Part shown: positions 1 through 33,988 of the stretch, piece after piece
How positions within the stretch are numbered: position 1 is the stretch's first letter
How the letters are laid out: each line of letters opens with the position of its first letter
Source: a virus
Virus genome (UHGV): UHGV-0078433
Direction: 5' to 3' (one strand)
Length of the DNA stretch: 37,911 bases
Position numbers and translations under genes: made by a program
The notes under the pieces: model-generated
The model's input: only the letters and a program-made list of their open reading frames with translations
What the model was told of the DNA's origin: nothing
The model's database searches: none

Positions 1-49
1 GCGCTAATTTTTTGTCAACGCACTGGGTTAGTTGAATTTACAACCATGC

Positions 50-445
50 TCAGTATCTCGATAAACGCAGAGAAATGATGCAGTGGTGGGCGGATTGGCT
101 TGATGAAAAAGTGGCGTAATGCCACCCATCACCCACCCTGTCATCCTGTAGCGCGCTGTTGATGAAGAACGTCACGCGCCCCAGCACCTCAACTTCCTCC
201 TCCTCCTCCCCTTCGATCGCTTCACCATCATCAGTGATTAATGTCCTACCCATTACCCGGGCAAACTGCGTTCTGCCGCCAGATAAAATCAGCAGAACCT
301 GATTCTGTACCAGCCTGGTGCACGGCTCGATAACGGCAAAGCCGGATGAGGTTTCCAGGATGCGAGTGTCGACGCCAACACCGCAGATTCGCTCCGGAGT
401 TAACCGCTGCTCTACATAGTCGCCAGCCGGCGAAGGGAAGCCCAT
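50..445 (-). CDS. UmuD'-like S24-fold protein, begins at the UmuD autocleavage position, catalytic Ser/Lys not conserved
   Basis: N-terminus MGFPSPAGDYVEQR matches the UmuD segment just after the Cys24-Gly25 cleavage site; GGAGG-type RBS 8 nt upstream; positions aligning to SGDSM and TVKKL read SSGFAV and a Gly/Glu-rich stretch. Confidence 0.6.
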   Translation of the reverse strand: MGFPSPAGDYVEQRLTPERICGVGVDTRILETSSGFAVIEPCTRLVQNQVLLILSGGRTQFARVMGRTLITDDGEAIEGEEEEEVEVLGRVTFFINSALQDDRVGDGWHYATFSSSQSAHHCIISLRLSRY

Positions 446-693
446 TACAGAACCCTCCCCATGTTACGTAGCATCCAGAGACGGTTTTCACTGTGGTCAG
501 GCGTCTTGTCGACAAAGAACTCTTGATAGCGCTGGATCCACTCGTTGGCGTCGACCTGGCTGAAATGCCAGTTTCTCGTGCGCAACTCACGGATGAAGTC
601 GTTCGTATGAAGGCACTGATAACCCTTTGGGTTTTGCTGTACTGCAGCGACAAATGCGCTGTGAATGTCTGATTGGCGGGGTATGATCTGCAC
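445..693 (-). CDS. Hypothetical 82-aa protein, stop overlaps start of UmuD'-like gene (TAATG)
   Basis: Open frame of 82 codons; only possible start is GTG at 693 abutting AGGAG with zero spacer, in-frame TAA immediately upstream; no recognisable family. Confidence 0.45.
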   Translation of the reverse strand: MQIIPRQSDIHSAFVAAVQQNPKGYQCLHTNDFIRELRTRNWHFSQVDANEWIQRYQEFFVDKTPDHSENRLWMLRNMGRVL

Positions 694-700
694 TCCTTTT

Positions 701-720
701 TACTGTTTTTATATACAGTA
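701..720 (-). promoter_or_regulatory. LexA (SOS) box, TACTGTATATAAAAACAGTA as read on the - strand
   Basis: Perfect CTGT-N8-ACAG with AT-rich spacer; as I recall it, the same 20-mer as the E. coli umuDC operator; sits at the centre of a ~60-bp palindrome (684-743) upstream of the 82-aa/UmuD'-like unit. Confidence 0.75.
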
Positions 721-776
721 GTTTTAAAGGAGATGCAGATCAATGAGGCGATACCTATCAATAATCCCGGCTGGCG

Positions 777-2606
777 TTACACCTGACCAAGGTCCTCTAC
801 GCTTTCCTGATCATTCAGCAAGGTAATGGCAACAGCAATTGAGGAGAGGATAGTTTTGATTTCTATGGTGTTCATCCCTTCCTTTTCCCGGACGTACTCG
901 CATAATTTATCGACGTCAAATATCTCTCTGATGTTTGTATATTCGGCGGCTCTTTCAAGCAAGTGCACGATTTCTTCTCGCTGACCTTCGACAAATTGAG
1001 CCTGCCATGCTTGCACAGACCTTGGCGTGAATTTAACCCCGCTATCATAAGGAGCATCTGCGATATCAAGGCCAAATCTACCCTGCAATGATTTATCCCA
1101 TGTCGCATTCAAAAATGGCAGAGAAACTAATTCAGGAGCCAGCTTTGCCATGACGCTGTAGTGGAACAATTCTTTGTTCCTGGCCTCCGGACTGAGCTTG
1201 AATACCAAACGCGCAACTTTAGGAGAGAGAAGTGGCATCAGTTTAATTCTGCCTGTGACGTTCTGAGCAAGAGGGCCGTTCCAATTGGAAAGACGGTTTT
1301 CTACGAAGAACTTCTCAGGTAAAACATCAAACCTTACAGATTTAATATTCTCCTCAAGCCAGCCGTAGAACCAACCTATTTGAGCGTTTTTATACAAACT
1401 GGAGAGAATGTTTAATGGATCCATCTTCTGATGGTAGTTTATGAACTTAGAAAGAATTGCATCTTTATTGTCCATAAAGGACAGGTTTTTAAACTGCTTG
1501 GCGTGTCCGCCGGGTCCGCGATATAGCTCGCCGCCAAAGCCAGTCATATCGGACGTTATATTTTTGATGGTGCGTTCAGCTGTTGCTCCATCCCATGGGC
1601 AAATATAACTTTCCATTCTGTAGGAATGCCAGTTAAGTTTTTCCCATGAATTAGCAAAATCCTGAGCTTTAACTTGTGGAGCCTTAACGTTAGCGACGTG
1701 CTTAACGCCGATTTTGCTGGCTATGTTCTGAGCGCAACTTATCTCCGGGCTTCCTTCCGGTCCGTTCGTAAATGTGGTAATCCTGTCTTTGAATCCTGCA
1801 CCCAATGCCAGTGCAAGGACAAGACGAGAGTCCTTACCACCGGTCAGTGATAAGCGGAGTTCACCGGGAATGTTTTCACTCGCAGCCTTAAAGTTTTTCA
1901 CCAATTCATCTACGATCAAATCCCAGTCATCACCTGAAAGGTCATTTAGATATTCAGCATCCTCACTTGAAGGCCAGATCTGATTCTTAAATTTATTGAT
2001 ATTTACTGTTGTTGAACCGATTGGTGACTTTAAATAGCTACCTGCCGTGATTGTATTTACACCTTCAAATGGTGTTTCATTTCCAAATATATTGGCATGC
2101 CCAATCAACCAGCTCAATGAGGAAAGGTTATATTTACCATTGCCTCGTAATTCATGTAATGCAGATGCTCTGTTACTTACGCAGGTCACACCATCAATTA
2201 TTGTGTAATAAATAGGACAGGTGCCTGAGAAATCGCCGAAAGCAAGGAGGCCATTCTTGGAGGTTATTGAAACGAAGTTGTAAGACCCGGAAATATTGTC
2301 AAACATGTATTCCGCATCGTTTTTTGTGGAGGCATCAAGTGCGGCGTCAGACACGTCATAGCTATCCCCCATCCTTAAAACAGGGCCATTTATCAGGCAT
2401 ACGCCGCTTTGCTTAGATGTTATTCTTTTTGATATTTCGCCTTCCGCATTGCCACATGCTGTATATGCCCAAGCTCCGCTACCAGATATTTTATTAGCCA
2501 CCTCTACTGGCTTAAATGTTAAGTTCCTTTTTAGGGCCTGCTGCGCTGTCTCGTATAATTTCTTAACAGACTCGCTTTTTCCATTTAAAACAATAAAGTT
2601 TATCAT
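777..2606 (-). CDS. Asparagine synthetase (AsnB)-family PP-loop protein with GATase-like N-domain lacking the N-terminal Cys nucleophile
   Basis: 609-aa ORF; PP-loop LSLTGGKDS; AsnB-like motifs GDFSGTCPIYYT and AGSYL; residue 2 is Ile not Cys; visibly AT-rich versus neighbours. Confidence 0.8.
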   Translation of the reverse strand: MINFIVLNGKSESVKKLYETAQQALKRNLTFKPVEVANKISGSGAWAYTACGNAEGEISKRITSKQSGVCLINGPVLRMGDSYDVSDAALDASTKNDAEYMFDNISGSYNFVSITSKNGLLAFGDFSGTCPIYYTIIDGVTCVSNRASALHELRGNGKYNLSSLSWLIGHANIFGNETPFEGVNTITAGSYLKSPIGSTTVNINKFKNQIWPSSEDAEYLNDLSGDDWDLIVDELVKNFKAASENIPGELRLSLTGGKDSRLVLALALGAGFKDRITTFTNGPEGSPEISCAQNIASKIGVKHVANVKAPQVKAQDFANSWEKLNWHSYRMESYICPWDGATAERTIKNITSDMTGFGGELYRGPGGHAKQFKNLSFMDNKDAILSKFINYHQKMDPLNILSSLYKNAQIGWFYGWLEENIKSVRFDVLPEKFFVENRLSNWNGPLAQNVTGRIKLMPLLSPKVARLVFKLSPEARNKELFHYSVMAKLAPELVSLPFLNATWDKSLQGRFGLDIADAPYDSGVKFTPRSVQAWQAQFVEGQREEIVHLLERAAEYTNIREIFDVDKLCEYVREKEGMNTIEIKTILSSIAVAITLLNDQESVEDLGQV

Positions 2607-2871
2607 TTAATTCCCGCGCAAGATAATTGGCAATATTTAAAGTTGATAACTATTTGGTTAACAGAGTAAACAACCAAGATTGTGCAATACTTGCTAGGAC
2701 GGGTCAATGATTTGTGTGTGGTTTTGGGGTCTAACCACTAATTTTGATATCAGTAGTGAATTTTACAAATGCAGGATTGAGGGTGCTCTTGCGCCACCAA
2801 AAGATGCGAATATGACGTAGCGAAAGCACCCTCTCTGTTTGGGTAGGATTGACGATTAGTGCATCAGAAAG

Positions 2872-5358
2872 CTACTTTGCTTCGAGATTTCCCACTCGTT
2901 CAGCCAGAGCCTCAAACTGCGATAGCAGCCTTTGATGATTACGACGATGAAGGGCAGCCTCCATCACTAATGCCTCCTCATATCGAATGCCATAGCGTGA
3001 TCCCGCTTCAACCGCCGGAACTACTACATCGCCAGTCTCTTCATCAAGAACTTCTGGTGAGCTTTCCCACTTGTCATAACAGAAGAAAGCAAACTGGTGA
3101 GGATCAAGTCCATGACGGATAAACGCTTCTTGCGCACGCTGGGCAATAATGCCGACATGCCAACGGGCTCCATCATCTCCCTTTGCCTCTATACGGTCAA
3201 TGAACTGGAACTGCACGAAATCTACTTCCGCCCAGGCATCCAGAATATCATCTGCGTACGGCGCTTCCATTAACCGTGAATCTGTCGTTTGGACGGGTTC
3301 GAGAGAACCACGAGCCAGCATCACTGGACGCGATTTTTGCCTTTCATCGGAGGTGACAGTATACGCAGCCTGAGTGAATCCGCCCGCAAATGGACTTGAA
3401 CTGGTACCAACAGTTCTGGTGTTAGCGGCGCTGGGCTGGATATTGCCGTTTACGCTCATGTTGGTGTTGATATTTACGACAGCAGAAGCAAAGCGTGCAA
3501 CTTCAGTACCGGCCGACGCTTCAGTTGATGAGACGTAGAGGCCGACAGCATTTTTACTAAGGACTGCGGTTCGGGCAAATCCACTAGAATCGCGGATCTC
3601 TCCGAGCCCAACTTGATAATCGTCAGACTGCGGGCCGGTAACGTTAGTGATGCAATGGAATACGCCACCCATTTGGTTAAACGGATCTGTCACGGATTCA
3701 AGATGAAGGCCATCTATAATGATCTTCCCGGTATTGCTACCCCCTGACTCTATGCCTACAGGGCAATTCCTTAACGTCACGTTGGTTAGTTTTTGATATT
3801 TCCTGTTCAGGCGTAAGGCAACATTGGTGTCTCTACACACAATATTGGTTACAGAACACGCCTCTGCATCACCAAACTGCCGATCACTGGCTCCGGAGGC
3901 TGTTGTTGTCTGGTATCCGGTTATTGCGTTAGCGCACTGAATATTTGATCCGTTGCAATATCGCTCCTCAATCCACACTGAAGCCCCAATTCTTCCGCCA
4001 TCATATCCGAGACATGATATATTGCTGTAATTGACGAATGGGGATTTAATATGGAGCCCGATGATGTCTGAATCAGTGGATTTAAATCGGTTCTGAATGA
4101 CTGTGATGTTTGTAACATCACTCCATACACCGCCAGTTCCACGACTGACGGTATCGCCAATGATCCCCTGCTTGATACGGACGCCAGCGCCGGGCGCTCC
4201 GACGTTACCAAAGTCTGACACATAAACGTTCGATACCTTCGGCGCCAATGACATTACGTCAACGCCTGCCCAAGGGTGGGCTGGCTCGTCAAGTTGCCCG
4301 AAGTTGAAAACGAAGATGTTATTTAATTGAAACGCGCGACTGACAGACCCATTATCCTTAATGTCGATACCATCTGCGCCGGTGTTTTCAGACCAGAATC
4401 CGTCGATGCTGCAGCCCTTATACCCGCCATTCTGAAGACCCAAGGCATAATGAGAGCAGTTCTTTACCTTGAGGCCGCGAATTGTAAGCCCCTCGATTCC
4501 TGCTCCGACAATGCCTTCAGTTTGCCGGGCGTAAGGAGTACCATTCCATAAGTAATTCCCGTCGATACAAATATCTTGAAGGCCGACGCCCCTTACTTTT
4601 GTGGTGCCGTTTTCGAGCGGTGGCTTTGACCACTGTATTACCCCATATGCAGCATCTGTGTTGTAAGCTCTTATAGTAGTAGAGTTCCATCCCTGCCCAC
4701 GGAGAATAATGTTGTCAAATGGGATGCGCAAAGCAGCAACGTTTAACGTTGCGTTGGCAGAGCTAAATTCAGTCGGATCCTGATGCACCATGTATAAGGG
4801 CCGCGGGAATACAATCGTGCCCCCGCCGGCTGCACTGAGTTCCTGCGCCTTCTGCATTATCAGTCTTGCGTTCTGCAGGGCGACAACCTGGCTAACAACC
4901 CCAGGGATTACGCCAAATGAATCAGCGGTTATTTCAATGCCACCAATTAATGACGAGCCGGTACTGGAGCTTAATCTCTGGACAAAAGAAAACGGATCAA
5001 CCAGGGAGCAATTTTCAAAATAGTATTGCTGAGCCCCATAAGCATCGTAAACAGCCATGCTGTAATCACTTTCAGTGACTATGGTTACAACCTGGCCATT
5101 ATATACTGGGTAACCTGAGGAATTAATTTTAACTGGCTGGCTGATCTGCACCAGGGAGCCATTTTCATTCCTGAAATAAACCGCTACCCTATTGGCTGGA
5201 TTTGTTGGATCCGTGTCAGGAACACCAACATAAATATTACCGTTTGCGATAGCTTTAAAGCTTCTCGGCGTAATAAATGGGATGTACGGCATTGTTACTT
5301 GCTGGTTGGCAATGATATCTGGCATTTGCTGTTCTCCAGGTGCAGAAAAGCCGCACAA
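2872..5358 (-). CDS. Tailspike: P22 gp9-like head-binding N-domain, beta-helix depolymerase-like centre, C-terminal self-cleaving chaperone (S74-type) domain
   Basis: N-terminal ~110 aa resemble P22 tailspike N-terminus (recall); repetitive beta-helix-like middle; SDERQK motif followed by ~150-aa chaperone-like tail. Confidence 0.85.
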   Translation of the reverse strand: MCGFSAPGEQQMPDIIANQQVTMPYIPFITPRSFKAIANGNIYVGVPDTDPTNPANRVAVYFRNENGSLVQISQPVKINSSGYPVYNGQVVTIVTESDYSMAVYDAYGAQQYYFENCSLVDPFSFVQRLSSSTGSSLIGGIEITADSFGVIPGVVSQVVALQNARLIMQKAQELSAAGGGTIVFPRPLYMVHQDPTEFSSANATLNVAALRIPFDNIILRGQGWNSTTIRAYNTDAAYGVIQWSKPPLENGTTKVRGVGLQDICIDGNYLWNGTPYARQTEGIVGAGIEGLTIRGLKVKNCSHYALGLQNGGYKGCSIDGFWSENTGADGIDIKDNGSVSRAFQLNNIFVFNFGQLDEPAHPWAGVDVMSLAPKVSNVYVSDFGNVGAPGAGVRIKQGIIGDTVSRGTGGVWSDVTNITVIQNRFKSTDSDIIGLHIKSPFVNYSNISCLGYDGGRIGASVWIEERYCNGSNIQCANAITGYQTTTASGASDRQFGDAEACSVTNIVCRDTNVALRLNRKYQKLTNVTLRNCPVGIESGGSNTGKIIIDGLHLESVTDPFNQMGGVFHCITNVTGPQSDDYQVGLGEIRDSSGFARTAVLSKNAVGLYVSSTEASAGTEVARFASAVVNINTNMSVNGNIQPSAANTRTVGTSSSPFAGGFTQAAYTVTSDERQKSRPVMLARGSLEPVQTTDSRLMEAPYADDILDAWAEVDFVQFQFIDRIEAKGDDGARWHVGIIAQRAQEAFIRHGLDPHQFAFFCYDKWESSPEVLDEETGDVVVPAVEAGSRYGIRYEEALVMEAALHRRNHQRLLSQFEALAERVGNLEAK

Positions 5359-27397: not shown

Positions 27398-28774
27398 TCA
27401 TACGTCCGCCCCTTGTGCATATCGTCTGCCACGCGCAGCAGGTGCATTTGATGCTGTGCAAATCTGTCTGGCTTCATCCTGGTCACATGCAACAAAGTGT
27501 CCGTTGCAGAACCGCTGGTAAACCGTACCAAGCGAGCCAAAACGGTTTTTCGTCACGATGATTTCAGCAAATGGCGCGGCGCTACTGTTCTCGTCATATA
27601 CCGCTTCCCGATAGAGCATGATGATTGAGTCTGCGTCCTGTTCAATGCTTCCTGAATCACGCAAATCTGCGTTTGTCGGGCGTTTGTTTGGTCGCTTCTC
27701 AACATCGCGTGAAAGCTGACTCAGGGAGATAACTGGCGTTTTCAGGTCTTTCGCCATCGCCTTAAGGCTTCCTGAGATGTGAGCAATTGCGAGGTCGTTG
27801 CGGTCTGCTTTCGGCTTCTCAATCAGGCCAAGATAATCCGCCATGATGAGTGACAGGTTTGGATTTTCCTGTTTGTGCCGTTCTGCGATTGAGCGAATTT
27901 CTTCGACCGATAACCGCGAGGCATCGACTACCCATACATCCAAATCTGCAAGCTGACTCATGCCTTTAGCAACACGTGCCCAGCCCTCGTCATCCATCGA
28001 TGCAGGATTTCGCAGTACGCTAACCGACATCCTCCCGGCGTTGGCAATGCTTCGCTCTGCGATCTGCAATGCGCTCATTTCCATCGAGAAAATCAACACT
28101 CCGCGCCGGACGTCAGAACCAGGAATAACGCGGCTTGCAACGCCTTCGGCAATCTTCAGCGCCAGCTCGGTTTTCCCCATACCCGGACGAGCAGCGATAA
28201 TCACCAGGTCTTCCGAGTTCATCCCTCCGGTGATGACATCAAGTTCTTCGATTCCGGTCTTCAGGGTATCTGACTCTTCTCCGTTCCTCAGACGCCTGTC
28301 AAGCGTGTCAGTGTAGTCAGTGATGATTTCCCCTAACCGTACAGGTTTAACCTCGTCACGGGGCTTTCTGATGGCTGAAAGACGCTTTACGAGCTCGTCC
28401 ATCGCCTGACTCGATGTATCGATGGTTCCGCTCTGAATTGGTTCACGCATTTCATCCATGATTTCCAGCACCAGACGACGGTGATAGTTATCCGCGACCA
28501 TTCCGGCATATCCCTTCAGGTTTGCGGCACTCGGGCAGTTCTTGCTGGTCATCAGGATTGACGTGAAATGCTCCTCTCCGCACGCCTCGGCAACCATCAG
28601 CGCGTCGATTAGGTTTCTGTTTCGCGCCTGCTTGCGGATAACCTCGAAGGCTTTCCGGTAGAGCGGAATTGAAAACGCTTCCGGCTCCAGCGTTGCCAGA
28701 ACGTCGCTGGCGGTTGGAGTTAATCCACCAATCAGCAGGCCACCGATAACGCTCGCTTCGATATCCTGTTTCAT
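27398..28774 (-). CDS. Replicative DNA helicase (DnaB family; P22 gene 12-like)
   Basis: Walker A ARPGMGKT, DnaB-like N- and C-domains. Confidence 0.9.
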
Positions 28775-29592
28775 GCAATCCCCCTGTCTGCAAACTTCCC
28801 TTCCCGTACTCCCGTTAACGAATCTTCCCTCAGCAGGTAATCAAAATCTGCCGTCCATCCCGTGTCGTTGTCTCCGAAGTAAAACGGCTTGGCCTGATGC
28901 ACAAACGCCCTGACATACGCTCTGAAACCGTCCACGTTTGGCGTTTTCAGTTGCGGGATGATTTTCTTCAGGCGGCGTTTGCGTTTCTCGTTGACCGCAA
29001 CAGCATGTGGAAGTCTGTCACCGACTTCGGTGTTGTAGGCGTTCAGGAAGGATTCGTAGTCGATTCGTTCTGCCTTGCGACGTTCAGGTTTAACCTGCCC
29101 ATCGCCTCCCCCGTTAGGGGGTAAGGGGGTATTTGTATTTATTGTCTTTTGTATATTGTCTTTTGTGTTTAGCTGACTTGGCTTATACCCATTAGCTGAC
29201 TTGGCTAATGTTTTATTAGCTGCTTTAGCTAATGTTAAGCTGTCCTGGCTAATCCACTGAGAAACCACCTTGTTCACTCCGATTTTCACGCCATCAGCAA
29301 TGAGGAATTTACGCTCGATAAGCTGGCGCTTGGCAGCGCAAACATGAGTGTGATGAATACCTGTCATGGCTGCTATCTGCGTGTTTGTGAGTCGATCCAT
29401 CGGCTTATTGAATCCGTATGTCTTGCGCATGATAGCGAGCATCACCTTCAACTGCCGGACGGTTAAATCAGCCATCAGCAGACTGTCGGTAATCTCGTTA
29501 GCAACGCGCATGAAACCATCTTCGGTATCTGCCACGCGATGCTCCACGACCTCAAGTTGAGGCCTGTAATCAGCTAACTTAACGACGCCCAT
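28771..29592 (-). CDS. Replication initiator O-like (P22 gene 18-like)
   Basis: HTH N-domain, origin iterons inside the gene, directly upstream of helicase. Confidence 0.8.
29131..29260 (-). repeat. Replication origin: four iteron-like repeats plus adjacent AT-rich region, inside the O-like gene
   Basis: TAGCTGACTTGGCT x2, TAGCTGCTTTAGCT, AAGCTGTCCTGGCT (29169-29256) next to T-rich 29131-29170. Confidence 0.6.
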
Positions 29593-29772: not shown

Positions 29773-30069
29773 TCAGAATTGCATATCAATTTGCTTAGAG
29801 TCCCCGGCGGCCACCGGGGATTTTTTCTTTGTGATTTCATCAAGCGCATACTTAAAAGCCCTGCTAATCGGACTGATGTCTGATGCCATTCCGAAAGCAC
29901 ACAAGACCGAAGCAATAAATCTCCAGTCCGTTCTGCTTATCTTCGATTCATGACAGCCAATCATCTTTGCCAGACCGCGCTGGGTAAGCGTTGACAGGTT
30001 GATGAGTAAATCAGTTTCAGCGCGATCAATTTCTCGCTGTGTTGGCTTGCTGTAGCTTGCTTGTGCCAT
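29773..30069 (-). CDS. c1: cII-type transcriptional activator (P22 c1-like)
   Basis: Position right of cro; HTH LAKMIGCHESKISR. Confidence 0.75.
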   Translation of the reverse strand: MAQASYSKPTQREIDRAETDLLINLSTLTQRGLAKMIGCHESKISRTDWRFIASVLCAFGMASDISPISRAFKYALDEITKKKSPVAAGDSKQIDMQF

Positions 30070-30137
30070 TTGTTAATTTTCCTATATTGATATTGAGTTA
30101 TAGCGGCACACCCAATGGATTTGCCGCTGATGTTTGC

Positions 30138-30178
30138 TCACCCGGTTAGAGGTGAAAGACCAGAACTGTTAAAGAGCA
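30138..30178 (-). promoter_or_regulatory. nutR candidate: boxA TGCTCTTTAACA plus boxB-like hairpin with CUAACC in loop
   Basis: Immediately downstream of cro stop on - strand. Confidence 0.5.
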
Positions 30179-30184
30179 ATTTGC

Positions 30185-30370
30185 TTATGCCGCTTGGCGG
30201 TAAGCACTTTCTTGATACTTCAGGGCGCCAGCTGTAACGATTTCCAATCGATAGGCGTCTTTCTCTGGGATAACTTCTTTCCACTGAGAGACTGCTGCAT
30301 CGCTAATGCCTAGTGCTTTAGCAACAGCACGCTGGGTTCCGAAGTGGTCAATAACATCTTTTTTGTACAT
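30185..30370 (-). CDS. cro: Cro repressor (P22-type)
   Basis: MYKKDVIDHFGTQRAVAKALGISDAAVSQWKE... as recalled for P22 Cro. Confidence 0.9.
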   Translation of the reverse strand: MYKKDVIDHFGTQRAVAKALGISDAAVSQWKEVIPEKDAYRLEIVTAGALKYQESAYRQAA

Positions 30371-30383
30371 AGACTCGCTCCGA

Positions 30384-30450
30384 AATTAAAGAACACTTAA
30401 ATTATCCACCAAAGGAATCTTAAGTCAAGTTTATTTAAGATGTCTTAACT
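30384..30450. promoter_or_regulatory. Right operator/PR-PRM region with P22-type palindromic operators
   Basis: AATTAAAGAACACTTAAATT (30384-30403) and ATTTAAGATGTCTTAACT (30433-30450) between divergent cro and c2. Confidence 0.6.
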
Positions 30451-31101
30451 ATGAATACACAACTGATGGGTGAGCGTATTCGCGCTCGCAGAAAAGAACT
30501 CAAGATTAGGCAGGCTGCCCTTGGCAAGATGGTTGGCGTGTCTAATGTTGCTATTTCCCAATGGGAGCGATCTGAAACTGAGCCCAATGGCGAAAACCTA
30601 TTGGCCTTAGCCAAGGCTTTGCAGTGCTCCCCTGATTACCTGTTGAAAGGAGAGGATAGTCTTTCAAACATTGCCTATCACAGCAGGCATGATCCAAGAG
30701 GTTCGTATCCTCTAATTAGTTGGGTAAGCGCAGGATGTTGGATGGAAGCTGTAGAGCCATATCATAGGCGTGCAATAGATAACTGGTACGACACAACGGT
30801 AGATTGTTCTGAAGACTCTTTTTGGCTCGACGTTAAAGGCGATTCAATGACTGCCCCGGCAGGACTGAGTATTCCTGAGGGGATGATTATTCTCGTCGAC
30901 CCAGAAGTCGAACCACGTAATGGAAAGCTGGTAGTCGCCAAACTTGAAGGAGAAAACGAGGCGACATTCAAAAAGTTAGTTATTGATGCCGGTAGAAAAT
31001 TCCTGAAACCACTCAATCCACAATACCCAATGATTGAAATCAATGGGAACTGTAAAATCATTGGCGTTGTCGTTGATGCCAAGCTAGCAAACCTTCCTTA
31101 A
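30451..31101 (+). CDS. c2: C2 repressor (LexA-like S24 family, P22-type)
   Basis: Near-identical to P22 C2 as recalled; intact GDSM and KK cleavage motifs. Confidence 0.95.
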   Translation: MNTQLMGERIRARRKELKIRQAALGKMVGVSNVAISQWERSETEPNGENLLALAKALQCSPDYLLKGEDSLSNIAYHSRHDPRGSYPLISWVSAGCWMEAVEPYHRRAIDNWYDTTVDCSEDSFWLDVKGDSMTAPAGLSIPEGMIILVDPEVEPRNGKLVVAKLEGENEATFKKLVIDAGRKFLKPLNPQYPMIEINGNCKIIGVVVDAKLANLP

Positions 31102-31125
31102 GGGGCTTTCGCCCCTTTTTTATTT
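31101..31125 (+). terminator. Rho-independent terminator after c2
   Basis: AGGGGC-TTTC-GCCCCT followed by TTTTTTATTT. Confidence 0.7.
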
Positions 31126-31159
31126 CCCGTTAAAAATCAAAGACAAACTAAATTCACGT

Positions 31160-31220
31160 CCATAAAATTAAGTTTTCTTCAAAAATGCACTTGACCAATA
31201 AATTAAGAAGTCTTAAATTT
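31160..31220 (+). promoter_or_regulatory. pL with left operators
   Basis: -35 TTGACC (31191-31196), -10 TAAATT (31214-31219), palindrome AATTAAGAAGTCTTAAATT overlapping. Confidence 0.5.
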
Positions 31221-31265
31221 AAGCCATCAGCAGGACGCTGGAAGCCAAACGGAACAGATTGGCAG

Positions 31266-31305
31266 GCTCTTTAACATCGACGGACTCTCAACCTAACCGT
31301 TGAGA
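31266..31305 (+). promoter_or_regulatory. nutL candidate: boxA GCTCTTTAACA plus boxB-like hairpin TCTCAAC-CTAACC-GTTGAGA
   Basis: Between pL and N-like gene; loop shares CUAACC with nutR candidate. Confidence 0.5.
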
Positions 31306-31415
31306 CCAGAACTTGAGTGGTTTTGGGGATGGCGCGAATTGCAGCTGCAAGACAGCGATCGAGAAGATAAGCACCTCGACGCGTCATGCGCCAAAGCCAC
31401 TTAAAGGAGACCATC

Positions 31416-31721
31416 ATGGTAACCATTGTCTGGAAAGAATCCAAAGGTACGGCAAAAAGCCGCTACAAAGCTCGCAGAGCAGAACTTATTGCCGAGCGAC
31501 GCAGTAATGAAGCACTGGCGCGAAAAATTGCGCTAAAGCTCTCTGGTTGCGTCAGAGCAGACAAAGCAGCATCACTAGGAAGCCTTTGCTGCAAGAAGAA
31601 AGAAGAAGTCGTTCGAAAAAATAGAAGTATTTATTACAAAGATTCAAACCCGTTAGGAAACAAAATACATGCAGTCCAAAAAATAAAATTGTACAGTAAA
31701 CTACCGTACGGTGCTTATTGA
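31416..31721 (+). CDS. N-type antiterminator (P22 gene 24-like) with arginine-rich motif
   Basis: ARM GTAKSRYKARRAELIAERR resembles the P22 N peptide GNAKTRRHERRRKLAIER (recall); start at MVTIVW with GGAG RBS rather than track start 31386. Confidence 0.7.
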   Translation: MVTIVWKESKGTAKSRYKARRAELIAERRSNEALARKIALKLSGCVRADKAASLGSLCCKKKEEVVRKNRSIYYKDSNPLGNKIHAVQKIKLYSKLPYGAY

Positions 31722-32062
31722 GTATGCTTATGGTGAAAAAGACTATTTATGTTAATCCTGACCGCGGACAAAACAGAAAAGTATCTGATAGAGGTCTTAC
31801 ATCTCGAGACAGGAGGAGAATAGCGAGATGGGAAAAAAGGATAGCATATGCATTAAAAAACGGTGTAACACCTGGATTTAATGCTATAGATGACGGTCCG
31901 GAATATAAGATTAATGAAGAACCAATGGACAAAGTTGACAAAGCATTAGCAACACCATTTCCTCGCGATGTAGAAAAAATTGAAGATGAAAAATATGAGG
32001 ATGTAATGCACAGAGTTGTTAATCACGCTCACCAACGAAATCCAAATAAAAAATGGTCATAG
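31718..32062 (+). CDS. Hypothetical AT-rich moron protein downstream of N
   Basis: ORF track; followed by its own terminator. Confidence 0.5.
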   Translation: MSMLMVKKTIYVNPDRGQNRKVSDRGLTSRDRRRIARWEKRIAYALKNGVTPGFNAIDDGPEYKINEEPMDKVDKALATPFPRDVEKIEDEKYEDVMHRVVNHAHQRNPNKKWS

Positions 32063-32085
32063 CCCACTTCGGTGGGTTTTTTATT
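32061..32085 (+). terminator. Rho-independent terminator
   Basis: CCCAC-TTCG-GTGGG followed by TTTTTTATT. Confidence 0.7.
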
Positions 32086-32091
32086 GTCTGA

Positions 32092-32193
32092 ACAAATCTA
32101 ATTTACTACCGCAAGCCACGCAGTGAAATGGGTGTGACTTGCTCAGGCCGCCAGAAGCAACGCGGAAAATCAATTCCAGCTTATTACGATTGA
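32092..32193 (+). pseudogene. Relic 3' end of a lambda-type N gene
   Basis: Frame reads IYYRKPRSEMGVTCSGRQKQRGKSIPAYYD, matching the lambda N C-terminus ...WYSKPGERGITCSGRQKIKGKSIPLI (recall); in-frame stop just upstream. Confidence 0.5.
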
Positions 32194-32200
32194 GGTGGTC

Positions 32201-32338
32201 ATGCTCAAGAAAGTCAAACGCCGACTTTACAAAGAAGGTAGATATTCATGCCAGTTGCCAAAATGCGACACAACAAAATGGAGTGTCGATGATTGGTGTA
32301 ACTGGATAGATAGATACGGAACTTGGTGGGATAAATAA
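32201..32338 (+). CDS. Small Cys-containing ORF (45 aa) with GAGGTGG RBS, below track cutoff
   Basis: Hand-translated MLKKVKRRLYKEGRYSCQLPKCDTTKWSVDDWCNWIDRYGTWWDK. Confidence 0.35.
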   Translation: MLKKVKRRLYKEGRYSCQLPKCDTTKWSVDDWCNWIDRYGTWWDK

Positions 32339-32394
32339 CAGGTAACTTAAGCATATTTACTTTCGCAGCAAACCACTTATTTGAGGACTGATAC

Positions 32395-32637
32395 ATGAGA
32401 GTAAAAACTATGGGCGCAAGCCCATTAAGCGGTCGTATTTTTCAAGGAACATTAAACACTGAAAAAGGAATGTGGGTAGGAAAGAAAGAAGATGTCACCG
32501 AACAGGCAGTTAAGGCAGTAGCCGAACACATGATGATAAAAGACCAGAAATATGCATACGAAACGAAGGATGGCAAATGGCTGATAATAAGCCATCAACT
32601 GGTTGATAAATTACCAGAAGAGTTTATTGCTGGTTAA
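32395..32637 (+). CDS. Hypothetical protein
   Basis: ORF track; GAGGA RBS 7 nt upstream. Confidence 0.55.
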   Translation: MRVKTMGASPLSGRIFQGTLNTEKGMWVGKKEDVTEQAVKAVAEHMMIKDQKYAYETKDGKWLIISHQLVDKLPEEFIAG

Positions 32638-32765
32638 ATTCACTTTGGAACAAACAACAGAATAAACACTGCACTGTGTATTCATTCCAACGAGTGAATA
32701 CACGGAGCAATGTCGCTCGTAACTAAACAGGAGCCGACTTGTTCTGATTATTGGAAATCTTCTTT

Positions 32766-32790
32766 GCCCTCCAGTGTGGGGGCTTTTTTA
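32766..32790 (+). terminator. Rho-independent terminator upstream of c3
   Basis: GCCCTC-CAGTGU-GGGGGC followed by TTTTTTATAT. Confidence 0.5.
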
Positions 32791-32855
32791 TATGCATACC
32801 AATAACGCTTCACTCGAGGCGTTTTCGTTATGCAATCAAACAGAAGGAGCATCCT

Positions 32856-33026
32856 ATGCAACAGTTCGCTATTGCAGGGGCGGCATCGGTTCGCCCTTTC
32901 AACCCGATTTTATCGGTACAGCATTCACGAAAAAATATTTTAACCGGAGCAGACTTTAAACAACCAAGAATGAAAAGTTTGCTCGAAAAGCTTTGGGATA
33001 TTTTGAAACAACAAGGCCGTCCATGA
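32856..33026 (+). CDS. c3: CIII-type protease inhibitor (c3)
   Basis: MQQFAIAG...KLWDILKQQGRP resembles lambda CIII MQYAIAG...LIDILNQPGVP; internal start chosen because the track's N-terminal extension contains a terminator. Confidence 0.7.
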   Translation: MQQFAIAGAASVRPFNPILSVQHSRKNILTGADFKQPRMKSLLEKLWDILKQQGRP

Positions 33027-33193
33027 GTTTTACGGATAACTGGTCAGACGAAGAATTCATTCGTCAGATGAAAGAATTAATCGGTAACGAAGGAGATATT
33101 CATGTCACTTGCAACCACGGTGAAGGAGAGCAAGTTACAGAGACGCATGTACACGCAGCAGGCGTTAATGTATCGCCAGAAGGGAGATCGTGA
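33023..33193 (+). CDS. Hypothetical 56-aa protein (kil position)
   Basis: Start overlaps c3 stop (ATGA); acidic; identity unknown. Confidence 0.45.
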   Translation: MSFTDNWSDEEFIRQMKELIGNEGDIHVTCNHGEGEQVTETHVHAAGVNVSPEGRS

Positions 33194-33280
33194 AGGTGTT
33201 CGCGTATTTTTGAATGCGGCAAAGACTGAAGTATTAAATCAGCGTTATTTCCTTGGGCCATGTCCATTCTGAGGTGAATT

Positions 33281-33988
33281 ATGGATTTGAACAAATTCGA
33301 TGAGCCATTCAGCCCTGAAGATATCGAATGGCGAATACAGCAAAGCGGTAAAACACGCGATGGAAAGGTGTGGGCTATGGTGCTGGCTTATGTCACGAAC
33401 AGGGCAATCATGAAACGCCTGGACGATGTTTGTGGCAAAGCAGGATGGCGCAATGAATACCGCGATATTCCTAACAACGGCGGCGTTGAATGCGGCATAT
33501 CAATCAGGATTGATTCCGAATGGGTAACCAAATGGGATGCCGCTGAAAACACGCAGGTAGAAGCCGTAAAAGGTGGTCGTTCCGGTGCAATGAAGCGCGC
33601 TGCCGTTCAGTGGGGAATCGGTCGGTATCTGTATAACCTTGAGGAAGGTTTCGCACAAACATCTCTCGATAAAAAGCAGGGATGGCACAGGGCAAAACTG
33701 AAAGATGGAACAGGATTTTACTGGCTCCCTCCATCGCTGCCTGGATGGGCAATCCCAGCATCAGATAACAAACCATCACCAGAAAATACCAACCAGAAAT
33801 CACCATCGGTTGACTGCGAACAAATCCTGAAAGACTTCAGCGATTATGCGTCAACAGAAACTGACAAGAAAAAACTCATCGAGCGTTATCAGCGTGACTG
33901 GCAATTAATGGCTGGCAACGAGGAGGCGCAGGCTAAATGCGTTCAGGTAATGAACATCAGAGTTAACGAACTAAAACAGGCGGCATAA
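33281..33988 (+). CDS. Single-strand annealing recombinase: Rad52/Sak-like N-domain with Erf-like C-terminal tail
   Basis: N-domain ...GGRSGAMKRAAVQWGIGRYLYNLEEGF; C-terminal ~60 aa resemble P22 Erf C-terminus (recall). Confidence 0.75.
   Translation: MDLNKFDEPFSPEDIEWRIQQSGKTRDGKVWAMVLAYVTNRAIMKRLDDVCGKAGWRNEYRDIPNNGGVECGISIRIDSEWVTKWDAAENTQVEAVKGGRSGAMKRAAVQWGIGRYLYNLEEGFAQTSLDKKQGWHRAKLKDGTGFYWLPPSLPGWAIPASDNKPSPENTNQKSPSVDCEQILKDFSDYASTETDKKKLIERYQRDWQLMAGNEEAQAKCVQVMNIRVNELKQAA

What the first reader, a model, noticed from the sequence alone, without database searches (positions are those of the whole stretch)
32092..32193. Relic of a lambda-type N gene 3' end marks a recombination junction
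Directly after the terminator of the moron ORF, one frame encodes ...YRKPRSEMGVTCSGRQKQRGKSIPAYYD, matching the C-terminus of lambda N, with an in-frame stop just upstream so no intact gene exists. The intact N in this prophage is the P22-type gene further right. This indicates that the immunity and N module was swapped by recombination inside an ancestral N gene.
Basis: partly seen in the sequence, partly recalled or inferred. Interest (0 to 1): 0.5.

Follow-up and report, generated by a model that had tools for sequence, protein, structure and literature searches.

The report
Leftover N-gene end behind nun insertion
The roughly 100-base stretch is a real, dead leftover of the end of a phage N (antitermination) gene, pushed aside when the nun exclusion-gene cassette landed inside that gene; it is an ordinary recombination scar, found in about 4% of complete E. 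coli genomes.

Summary
Window 32092-32193 encodes TNLIYYRKPRSEMGVTCSGRQKQRGKSIPAYYD*, a match to N-protein C-termini: lambda N by tblastn E=1.6e-6, PHROG 271 E=1.7e-11, and 85/87 nt identical to the 3' end of the lambda-type N of phage Sf6. A TGA lies just upstream and there is no start codon.

- The 'moron ORF' is HK022 nun (2 aa differences).
- The intact N (31416-31721) lies upstream of the relic, not to its right. It has a phi21-type arginine-rich motif (ARM) and nutL.
- Relative to phage 21 N, an AT-rich 472-bp block (31614-32085, 36% GC against 46-48% in the flanks) sits between N codons ~63 and ~65. It holds a substitute N tail, the annotated nun promoter, nun and a terminator.
- The relic is the displaced original 3' end. 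Its first 22 nt carry phi21-family alleles.
- From 32142 on it is Sf6-type, so a later homologous crossover at 32123-32141 joined it to Sf6-like DNA (gp36-like gene).

The nun-relic junction occurs in 195 of 5426 complete E. coli genomes, in phages mEpX1 and mEp235, and with at least four different downstream modules. HK022 itself lacks it. I found no sign of a function. This is a known kind of thing, a mosaic-junction pseudogene fragment, of modest interest.

The parts
31266..31305 (+). nutL of the resident N: boxA GCTCTTTAA (31266-31274) and a boxB-like hairpin TCTCAAC-CTAACC-GTTGAGA (31286-31305).
   Evidence: Sequence read. The same stretch is annotated as a putative Nut boxA in mEpX1. It lies inside the block that is 97% identical to lambda imm21.
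31416..31721 (+). Intact N gene, 101 aa (an upstream ATG at 31386 is an alternative start). Phi21-type ARM and core up to about codon 63-66, then a substitute AT-rich tail KDSNPLGNKIHAVQKIKLYSKLPYGAY.
   Evidence: 80% identity to phage 21 N, 99-100% to mEpX1/mEp235 N. PHROG 271 E=4.6e-31. Tail resembles the ST64T gp24 tail.
31614..32085 (+). Inserted AT-rich nun cassette: substitute N tail, nun promoter, nun and terminator. It is absent from phage 21 / lambda imm21 N. HK022 shares 31604-32079.
   Evidence: Breakpoints. GC 35.8% against 48.3% for the N 5' part and 45.7% for the relic. Present as a unit in 218-221 of 5426 E. coli genomes.
31669..31697 (+). Hexamers ATGCAG (31669-31674) and TACAGT (31692-31697). 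They are identical to the 'nun gene promoter' -35 and -10 annotated in the HK022/lambda hybrid O276, and lie inside the N tail coding sequence.
   Evidence: The generic consensus scan did not pick it up, so its activity here is inferred, not shown.
31724..32062 (+). nun, the HK022-type transcription termination and exclusion factor, 112 aa ending ...NPNKKWS.
   Evidence: 111/113 positions identical to HK022 Nun, counting the stop. PHROG 5632 'Nun-like' E=8.5e-71 over the full length.
32061..32088 (+). Intrinsic-terminator-like hairpin AGCCCAC-TTCG-GTGGGTT followed by TTTTATTGTC. This is the right end of the cassette.
32086..32193 (+). N 3' relic, roughly N codons 63/65 to the stop.
- 32086-32100: decayed edge with small deletions and TGA 32089-32091. 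That codon is CGA (N codon R65) in Escherichia sp. E1V33.
- 32101-32122: phi21-family alleles.
- 32123-32141: crossover interval.
- 32142-32193: Sf6-type (lambda-type N) 3' end.
32107..32386 (+). Block 98.2% identical to Sf6 (N 3' end, gene 36 and the downstream spacer).
32201..32338 (+). 45-aa gene identical in protein to Sf6 gp36 (DUF5484). Its Shine-Dalgarno sequence GAGGTG overlaps the relic's stop codon, as it does after the intact N in Sf6.
32395..32637 (+). 80-aa DUF7446 gene. Context only.
32644..32794 (+). Conserved lambdoid 'boundary sequence' with a terminator-like site at 32766-32790. It is 95% identical to lambda DNA between ea10 and ral (L001 921-1073) and to Sf6 bsq4/tL2A. In HK022 and strain E50 it follows nun directly, with no relic.

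Best explanation
The relic is the original 3' end (about the last 35 codons) of a phi21-family N antitermination gene. It became non-coding when a 472-bp AT-rich cassette was inserted into that gene between codons ~63 and ~65.

The cassette supplies three things: a replacement C-terminal tail that keeps N intact, the nun gene with a promoter embedded in that tail, and a terminator. The displaced N end therefore sits just downstream of the nun terminator inside the pL operon.

It has no start codon and, in this window, an in-frame TGA. Most likely it does nothing as a protein. Its last bases still carry the ribosome-binding site of the next gene.

Because it still matches the 3' ends of intact N genes in other lambdoid phages, it keeps recombining with them. 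In this prophage a crossover at 32123-32141 replaced its distal half and everything to its right with DNA from an Sf6-like phage that had a lambda-type N.

Shown here: the homology, the breakpoints, the composition jump, the population distribution and the chimeric make-up of the relic. Inferred: the order of events, the physical mechanism of insertion (homology-anchored illegitimate recombination or a template switch out and back), and the lack of function.
For: 1. Relative to lambda imm21, window 31100-31638 aligns at 97% and 32101-32156 at 89%. The two alignments abut at the same N position, the ATTTAYTAC = IYY codons.
2. In codon terms the phi21-like left flank ends at ...GAA GTC G and the relic resumes at GTC (C/T)GA ACx AAC CxA ATT TAC TAC. 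So both breakpoints fall within about 3 codons of one N gene.
3. GC content is 48.3% for the N 5' part, 35.8% for the cassette (29.5% for the N tail) and 45.7% for the relic.
4. The cassette behaves as a unit: 218 of the 221 E. coli genomes that contain any of it have it whole. HK022 shares exactly 31604-32079.
5. The nun-terminator-relic junction is in 195 of 5426 complete E. coli genomes and in 62 of 69 IMG/VR nun loci. These include lineages whose nun is only 93-94% identical, and N genes with a different ARM.
6. In most relatives the relic is purely phi21-family and identical in protein to the C-terminus of an intact N, that of the SF-468 prophage.
7. The modules after the relic differ: gp36-like, ral, Nmad5-family and a 156-aa ORF. 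Each of the three compared (gp36 in Sf6, ral in lambda imm21, the 156-aa ORF in SF-468) is also found right after an intact N elsewhere.
8. The window's relic carries relic/phi21 alleles up to 32122 and Sf6 alleles from 32142.
9. The 5' edge is decayed while the rest is 93-98% conserved, as expected if crossovers with intact N genes keep refreshing the distal part.
10. NCBI's PGAP pipeline independently calls the relic an incomplete pseudogene in one genome.
Against: - The cassette's own N tail is homologous to N C-termini (QKIKL.SK; NPLGNKIHAVQK as in ST64T gp24). The donor therefore already had an N-nun arrangement, and a plain 'insertion' needs either a homology-anchored event or two crossovers.
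- Arrangements with N tail, nun and terminator but no relic exist: E50, L084, HK022 and HK75. They could be ancestral rather than deletion derivatives.
- The relic is at least as conserved as the functional nun gene. For BR1220 against RM12522 the figures are 85/87 for the relic and 317/339 for nun. An undetected function could explain that equally well.
- No donor genome with a full-length AT-rich N next to nun was found (one search returned a single locus).
Confidence: 0.72

Rival explanations
1. Single unequal (illegitimate) crossover between two phages. One parent contributed immunity region, complete N, nun and terminator. The other contributed everything from the middle of its own N gene rightward. 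The relic would then be the remnant of the second parent's N, and nothing was ever 'inserted' into the resident N.
For: - N tail, nun and terminator occur without a relic in E50, L084, HK022 and HK75, where the conserved boundary sequence follows directly. N-nun is therefore a self-contained unit that could have been one parent.
- The resident N has a complete homologous C-terminus of its own.
- The distal relic and the DNA to its right in this window do come from an Sf6-like phage with a lambda-type N.
Against: - The point where the resident N stops resembling phage 21 N (after GAAGAAGTCG, 31613) and the point where the relic starts resembling it (GTC.CGA, 32086) correspond to the same ~3 codons of N. 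Two independent events would not be expected to coincide like that.
- The N tail shares nun's low GC, whereas the N 5' part and the relic share normal GC.
- The relic's proximal alleles are phi21-family, like the resident N's 5' part, and not lambda-type.
Confidence: 0.18
2. The relic is kept because it does something. Candidates are a short peptide from the internal ATG at 32128 (MGVTCSGRQKQRGKSIPAYYD, the RNA-polymerase-contacting end of N), a translational-coupling leader for the downstream gene, or an RNA element.
For: - The relic is 93-98% identical between lineages whose adjacent spacer is 74-89% identical.
- The frame from IYY to the N stop is open in all 10 copies examined.
- The downstream gene's Shine-Dalgarno sequence overlaps the relic's stop codon.
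Against: - There is no start codon with a ribosome-binding site, and in this window there is an in-frame TGA.
- The internal ATG is ACG in the RM12522 and SCPM9504 copies.
- The differences seen between copies are mostly amino-acid changing: I/N, M/T, S/R, S/C, G/R, A/T.
- The predicted RNA fold is no better than shuffled sequence, z=-0.17. Rfam found nothing.
- HK022, HK75 and E50-type phages do without the relic.
Confidence: 0.07
3. Chance resemblance of a short basic peptide to N, with no common descent.
For: The stretch is only about 30 codons long. A direct blastn of lambda against the window (word size 7, E<0.01) reports nothing there.
Against: tblastn E=1.6e-6, PHROG 271 E=1.7e-11, 85/87 nt identical to the Sf6 N 3' end and 50/56 to phage 21 N, and collinear with the gene that follows N in Sf6.
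Confidence: 0.01

Closest known systems
C-terminal segment of lambdoid N antitermination proteins (lambda N, phage 21 N, Sf6 gp37; PHROG 271)
   Same: The relic aligns codon for codon with the last ~30 residues. That covers YxKP..GxTCxGRQK and the end variants ...GKSIPAYYD (Sf6, ST64T) and ...LGSKPLI (phage 21). The nucleotide identities are 85/87 to Sf6 gp37 and 50/56 to phage 21 N.
   Different: It has no ARM, no NusA-binding middle part and no start codon, and it has an upstream in-frame stop. It is a gene fragment, not a gene. It is also chimeric, with a phi21-family proximal part and an Sf6-type distal part.
Morons of lambdoid phages (promoter-gene-terminator units of deviant composition; concept from the HK97/HK022 genome comparison, cited from my own knowledge)
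   Same: The nun block has an annotated promoter of its own, a terminator and a GC content 10-12 points below its flanks. It is present in some relatives and absent from others.
   Different: It is not placed between two genes. It is embedded in the N gene, brings a replacement N C-terminus, and leaves the old one as a downstream duplicate.
HK022 nun locus (records X16093, AF069308, and O276 MH547045)
   Same: Same nun (2 aa differences), same 120 nt upstream carrying the annotated nun promoter, and the same position in the pL operon.
   Different: HK022 has putL in place of nutL and the N 5' part, so it has no N. It lacks the relic, and it has IS903 further downstream. An HK022-immunity IMG/VR contig (L065) does carry the relic.
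Boundary or linker sequences at mosaic joints of lambdoid genomes (for example the 'bsq' features annotated in Sf6)
   Same: It is a short conserved stretch shared by phages whose flanking modules differ, and exchanges visibly occur within it. The crossover is at 32123-32141 here and at 32111-32121 in mEpX1. Sf6 N itself switches away from lambda N at the same place.
   Different: Here the shared stretch is a non-coding duplicate of a gene end, not an intergenic element or a live coding sequence.

Membership tests
Functional N antitermination gene (PHROG 271, lambda/phi21 N family) | N-terminal arginine-rich motif that binds boxB RNA | tested here: not met
   The relic matches only profile positions 142-172 of 176. 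tblastn hits cover only N residues ~70-110.
Functional N antitermination gene (PHROG 271, lambda/phi21 N family) | Uninterrupted ORF with a start codon and ribosome-binding site | tested here: not met
   TGA at 32089-32091 and the nun terminator immediately upstream. The only in-frame ATG (32128) has no Shine-Dalgarno sequence and is not conserved.
Functional N antitermination gene (PHROG 271, lambda/phi21 N family) | Conserved C-terminal segment (YxKP...TCxGRQK...) | tested here: met
   E=1.7e-11 to PHROG 271, E=1.6e-6 to lambda N and E=2e-14 to Sf6 gp37.
Lambda-type N specifically, as opposed to phi21-type | Nucleotide alleles of a lambda-type N gene (one whose N-terminus is Pfam N36, such as lambda N and Sf6 gp37) | tested here: inconclusive
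   Met for 32142-32193, which is identical to Sf6 gp37; Sf6 gp37 has N36 at E=1.6e-26. Not met for 32101-32122, where ATTTACTAC and AGT are phi21-family alleles while lambda/Sf6 have ACATGGTAC and TGT. In most relatives the whole relic is phi21-family.
Moron (nun cassette 31614-32085) | Own promoter | tested here: inconclusive
   The hexamers annotated as the nun promoter in O276 are identical here. The match to consensus is weak and the generic scan did not report it. Activity was not tested.
Moron (nun cassette 31614-32085) | Own terminator | tested here: met
   Seven-pair stem with a UUCG loop and a T run at 32061-32088.
Moron (nun cassette 31614-32085) | Base composition unlike the flanks, and presence/absence among close relatives | tested here: met
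   35.8% GC against 48.3% and 45.7%. Absent from phage 21 / lambda imm21 N and from the SF-468 N.
HK022 Nun | Full-length similarity, including the N-terminal ARM and the C-terminal ...KKWS | tested here: met
   111/113 aligned positions identical. PHROG 5632 E=8.5e-71 over residues 1-112.
HK022 Nun | Arrests transcription at lambda nut sites and excludes lambda | not testable with these tools
   Needs a superinfection or in vitro transcription assay.
Mosaic boundary / linker sequence | The same short sequence flanked by different modules in different phages, with crossovers mapping inside it | tested here: met
   Four downstream module types and at least three upstream immunity or ARM types share the relic. 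Crossover intervals map inside it.

The most novel reading that the evidence does not exclude
The duplicated N end is what makes nun mobile. The cassette sits between the N 5' core and a still-recombinogenic copy of the N 3' end, so it is flanked on both sides by N homology. Ordinary homologous recombination could then copy it into any related N gene without destroying N. That would explain why one junction is found with different ARMs, immunity regions and downstream modules.

A corollary follows. N-less, put-dependent HK022 would descend from such a split-N phage: it keeps the N tail (now the nun promoter), and a near-identical relative still keeps the relic.
Probability: 0.2. Interest if true: 0.5.

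Novelty: new member of a known kind. Interest (0 to 1): 0.3.

Why it matters
As a feature, it is a pseudogene scrap at a mosaic joint, which is ordinary for lambdoid prophages.

Its value is as a marker. It shows that the HK022-type exclusion gene nun normally lives inside a phi21-family N gene rather than replacing N. It also shows that the last ~30 codons of N are a recurrent exchange point between otherwise unrelated early-left modules. Finally, it gives a concrete route by which HK022's N-less arrangement could have arisen.

For annotation, these stretches should be labelled as N 3' remnants. The two upstream 'hypothetical proteins' in RefSeq records should be labelled N and Nun.

Tried and rejected
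- Direct blastn of lambda against the window (word size 7) found nothing at the relic. Only protein-level and pairwise alignments to lambda are significant, and closer N genes (Sf6, phage 21) were needed.
- A tblastn hit suggested that the HK022 putL region might be a decayed N 5' half. This was rejected: N residues 1-62 alone give E=10 there. Only the last ~38 codons survive in HK022.
- A small peptide from the internal ATG was rejected because the ATG is not conserved.
- RNA structure in the relic: z=-0.17. Rfam returned nothing relevant for 30000-33500.
- Pfam and NCBIfam gave no hit for the relic, and only a sub-threshold N_peptide hit for the intact N.
- A P22-type N 'further right' was not found. 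All N queries hit only 31416-31718 and the relic.
- The apparently truncated nun in strain E50 is an annotation artefact. The DNA is collinear with no indels.
- The search for an AT-rich donor in GTDB genomes returned a single Escherichia locus.
- Microhomology between the HK022-type sequence after nun (AACAGAAT) and N codons 66-68 was considered, by eye only and without a computed alignment, as the illegitimate joint. The similarity was too weak to claim.
- Open-access literature searches found no description of the relic or of the N-nun arrangement. King et al. 2000 on the nun promoters was not held in the library. Oberto et al. 1989 and the HK97/HK022 genome paper were judged not to be open access and were not requested.

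Full report
**1. What is at the coordinates**

In the finding's frame, 32062-32196 reads AHFGGFFIV*TNLIYYRKPRSEMGVTCSGRQKQRGKSIPAYYD*G. The peptide, the in-frame stop (TGA 32089-32091) and the terminal stop (32191-32193) are as described.

Lambda N searched against all six frames of the window has its best hit here: 32104-32178, 68% identity over 25 aa, E=1.6e-6. The 33-aa peptide matches the C-terminal end of PHROG 271 'anti-termination protein N-like' (positions 142-172 of 176, E=1.7e-11).

At the nucleotide level the relic gave these local alignments:

| Compared with | Identities | Note |
|---|---|---|
| lambda N | 51/74 | score 20; 1000 shuffles had mean 9.0, maximum 19 |
| phage 21 N | 50/56 | |
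| Sf6 gp37 | 85/87 | |

Sf6 gp37 is a lambda-type N. It matches lambda N almost exactly (one difference) up to TWYSKP and carries Pfam N36 at E=1.6e-26.

**2. The neighbourhood**

The immunity region is inverted relative to the lambda map:

| Feature | Coordinates | Strand |
|---|---|---|
| replication gene | 28771-29592 | - |
| cII | 29773-30069 | - |
| cro | 30185-30370 | - |
| cI-like repressor | 30451-31101 | + |
| nutL (boxA, boxB hairpin) | 31266-31305 | + |
| N | 31416-31721 | + |

This N has the phage 21 arginine-rich motif GTAKSRYKARRAELIAERR. It is 80% identical to phage 21 N and 99-100% identical to the N of phages mEpX1 and mEp235.

The 'moron ORF' (31724-32062) is HK022 nun: 111 of 113 positions identical, PHROG 5632 E=8.5e-71. 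It ends in a hairpin with a T run at 32061-32088.

After the relic comes a 45-aa gene identical in protein to Sf6 gp36 (32201-32338, DUF5484), then a DUF7446 gene. At 32644-32794 lies a conserved lambdoid boundary/terminator sequence.

N queries of four types (phage 21, SF-468, Sf6, ST64T/P22-group) hit the window only at the N gene and at the relic. There is no other N 'further right'.

**3. Anatomy of the junctions**

Against lambda imm21, window 31100-31638 aligns at 97% and 32101-32156 at 89%. The two alignments meet at the same N position, the IYY codons ATTTAYTAC.

Codon-level comparison shows that the phi21-like sequence of the resident N ends at ...GAA GTC G (31613). The relic resumes the N sequence at GTC-(C/T)GA-ACx-AAC-CxA-ATT-TAC-TAC (32086 onward), with small deletions. 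The comparison used intact N genes (lambda imm21, the SF-468 prophage) and diverged copies (RM12522, Escherichia sp. E1V33). In E1V33 the window's TGA is still CGA, which is N codon R65.

Relative to an intact phi21-family N, then, 472 bp (31614-32085) are interposed at essentially one point.

Base composition agrees:

| Segment | GC |
|---|---|
| N 5' part | 48.3% |
| interposed block | 35.8% |
| its N-tail portion | 29.5% |
| its nun portion | 36.9% |
| relic | 45.7% |

The block's first 105 nt encode a substitute N tail, NRSIYYKDSNPLGNKIHAVQKIKLYSKLPYGAY. This is itself homologous to N C-termini and is closest to the tail of ST64T gp24, RDVNPLGNKIHAVQK.... So N stays intact.

The same 105 nt contain the hexamers that the O276 (HK022/lambda hybrid) record annotates as the nun promoter. 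They are identical here, at 31669-31674 and 31692-31697. Promoter, gene, terminator and deviant composition together describe a moron, one embedded in N rather than lying between genes.

**4. The relic is chimeric**

Ten copies were compared. Most are purely phi21-family: IYY(R/S)KPRSEMGVTCVGRQKMKLGSKPLI*. This set includes mEp235, BR1220, HCP17S3, 2013C-3252, Z1323, RM12522 and SCPM9504. The sequence is identical in protein to the C-terminus of an intact N in the SF-468 prophage.

The window, mEpX1 and XJW9B263 share the same proximal part and the same junction with the nun terminator, but switch to the Sf6 sequence. In the window the relic/phi21 alleles run to 32122 and the Sf6 alleles start at 32142. 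In mEpX1 the switch lies between the equivalents of 32111 and 32121.

From 32107 to 32386 the window is 98.2% identical to Sf6. This is a second, homologous crossover inside the relic. It attached an Sf6-like right-hand module.

**5. Distribution**

- The whole cassette is in 221 of 5426 complete E. coli genomes, and 218 of those have it in one piece.
- The nun-terminator-relic junction is in 195 genomes.
- Among 69 IMG/VR nun loci, 62 have the relic: 49 with a phi21-type end, 12 with an Sf6-type end and 1 variant. Five tail-bearing loci lack it: HK022, O276, HK75, one E50-like locus, and one where the sequence is interrupted. Two distant nun homologues have neither tail nor relic.
- The junction occurs with different repressors, LexA-family and XRE-family, with a different N ARM (E1V33 and two IMG/VR loci), and with at least four downstream modules: gp36-like, ral, Nmad5-family and a 156-aa ORF. 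Each of the three modules compared (gp36 in Sf6, ral in lambda imm21, the 156-aa ORF in SF-468) also follows an intact N elsewhere.
- PGAP already flags the relic as an incomplete pseudogene ('regulator, missing N-terminus') in one genome.

**6. Function**

Nothing points to a function.
- There is no start codon or ribosome-binding site.
- The internal ATG is not conserved.
- The differences seen between copies are mostly amino-acid changing.
- There is no RNA structure beyond shuffled controls (z=-0.17) and no Rfam match.
- HK022-type phages lack the relic altogether.

One oddity remains. From IYY to the stop, the relic is 93-98% identical between lineages whose nun is about 93.5% identical and whose terminator/spacer is 74-89% identical. 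My preferred reading is that recombination with intact N genes repeatedly replaces the distal part. That fits the decayed 5' edge, which crossovers cannot refresh, the allele sharing with intact N genes and the variable downstream modules. A hidden function is not excluded, and I give it about 7%.

**7. How it arose**

Most likely a donor fragment was integrated into a phi21-family N gene. The fragment ran from the homologous point in a donor N gene through nun to its terminator. Integration would have been anchored by N homology on the left and joined illegitimately on the right at nearly the same point. Homology-facilitated illegitimate recombination or a template switch out and back would both do this. 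These mechanisms are inferred from the anatomy.

The main rival is a single unequal crossover between an N-nun phage and the interior of another phage's N. It is supported by the existence of relic-less N-nun phages. It does not explain why both breakpoints coincide within ~3 codons, or why the composition is split as it is.

**8. Verdict**

What created the relic was insertion of the nun cassette into a phi21-family N, not a swap of the immunity and N module.

In kind it is an ordinary mosaic-junction remnant. I found no published description of this architecture in the open-access library, and the key older papers were not available. The side result about HK022 may interest lambda specialists: an N tail remnant upstream of nun carries the nun promoter, and a 99%-identical relative still carries the relic.

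Noticed in passing
L002 (HK022 AF069308) 1501-1626; window equivalent 31604-31729: HK022, which has no N gene, keeps the last ~38 codons of an N gene directly upstream of nun (EVVRKNRSIYCKDSNPLGNKIHAVQKIKLYSKLPYGAY, with the stop changed from TGA to TGG). The O276 record places the nun promoter hexamers inside this remnant. N residues 1-62 have no significant match in HK022.
   Followed up: yes
L065 (IMGVR_UViG_2737471864_000010) 1-3336: This contig is 99.4% identical to HK022 from cII through nun. Unlike HK022, it carries the phi21-type N relic plus a ral-type module after nun, and has no IS903. It is a put-type phage with two N remnants flanking nun, which suggests that HK022 descends from a phage with a split N.
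   Followed up: partly
L020 (Escherichia sp. E1V33) 1636-2400; also two IMG/VR loci: The same tail-nun-terminator-relic structure sits in an N gene with a different arginine-rich motif (NARNRRRARRQAQREQA, as in the SF-468 prophage N). Here the relic frame is open back through N codon R65.
   Followed up: partly
L085 1489-1833 and L088 1501-1836 (IMG/VR): Distant nun homologues (66% and 58% identity) have no N tail upstream and no relic downstream. One lies two genes after a 933W-type N. The other lies directly after a putL-like region and an HK022-like repressor. Both are next to the same 147-aa gene.
   Followed up: no
window 31617-31721: The resident N is itself a mosaic. It has a phage 21 ARM and core, a middle tail like ST64T gp24 (NPLGNKIHAVQK) and an end like phage 21 (IKL.SK). 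This stretch has only 29.5% GC.
   Followed up: partly
L004 (Sf6) 1255-1587 compared with lambda N: Sf6 gp37 matches lambda N with one difference up to TWYSKP and then switches to a phi21/ST64T-like end. The N 3' end is therefore a mosaic joint in intact genes too.
   Followed up: partly
L010 (RM12522) 1537-2260 and L015 (SCPM-O-B-9504): In this lineage, where nun is about 93.5% identical, N appears to have lost its stop and is annotated as overlapping nun by 32 nt. I inferred a frameshift from the protein end and did not check it at the nucleotide level. The 3' half of the nun terminator stem is also destroyed (CCCACTTCGATAGA), yet the relic is 85/87 identical to that of BR1220.
   Followed up: partly
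L016 (Z1323HEC0393) 1566-1658: RefSeq/PGAP annotates the relic as a pseudogene ('regulator; incomplete; missing N-terminus'). In most of the RefSeq records inspected, N and nun are both labelled 'hypothetical protein'.
   Followed up: no
window 32644-32794: A 150-bp conserved element is 95% identical to lambda DNA between ea10 and ral and to the Sf6 'bsq4 / tL2A' boundary sequence. In HK022 IS903 is inserted in it, with a 9-bp target duplication equivalent to window 32682-32690.
   Followed up: partly
window 32201-32338: The 45-aa DUF5484 protein is identical to Sf6 gp36, which that record notes as similar to T4 Orf55.4. It contains several Cys and Trp residues. Its function is unknown.
   Followed up: no
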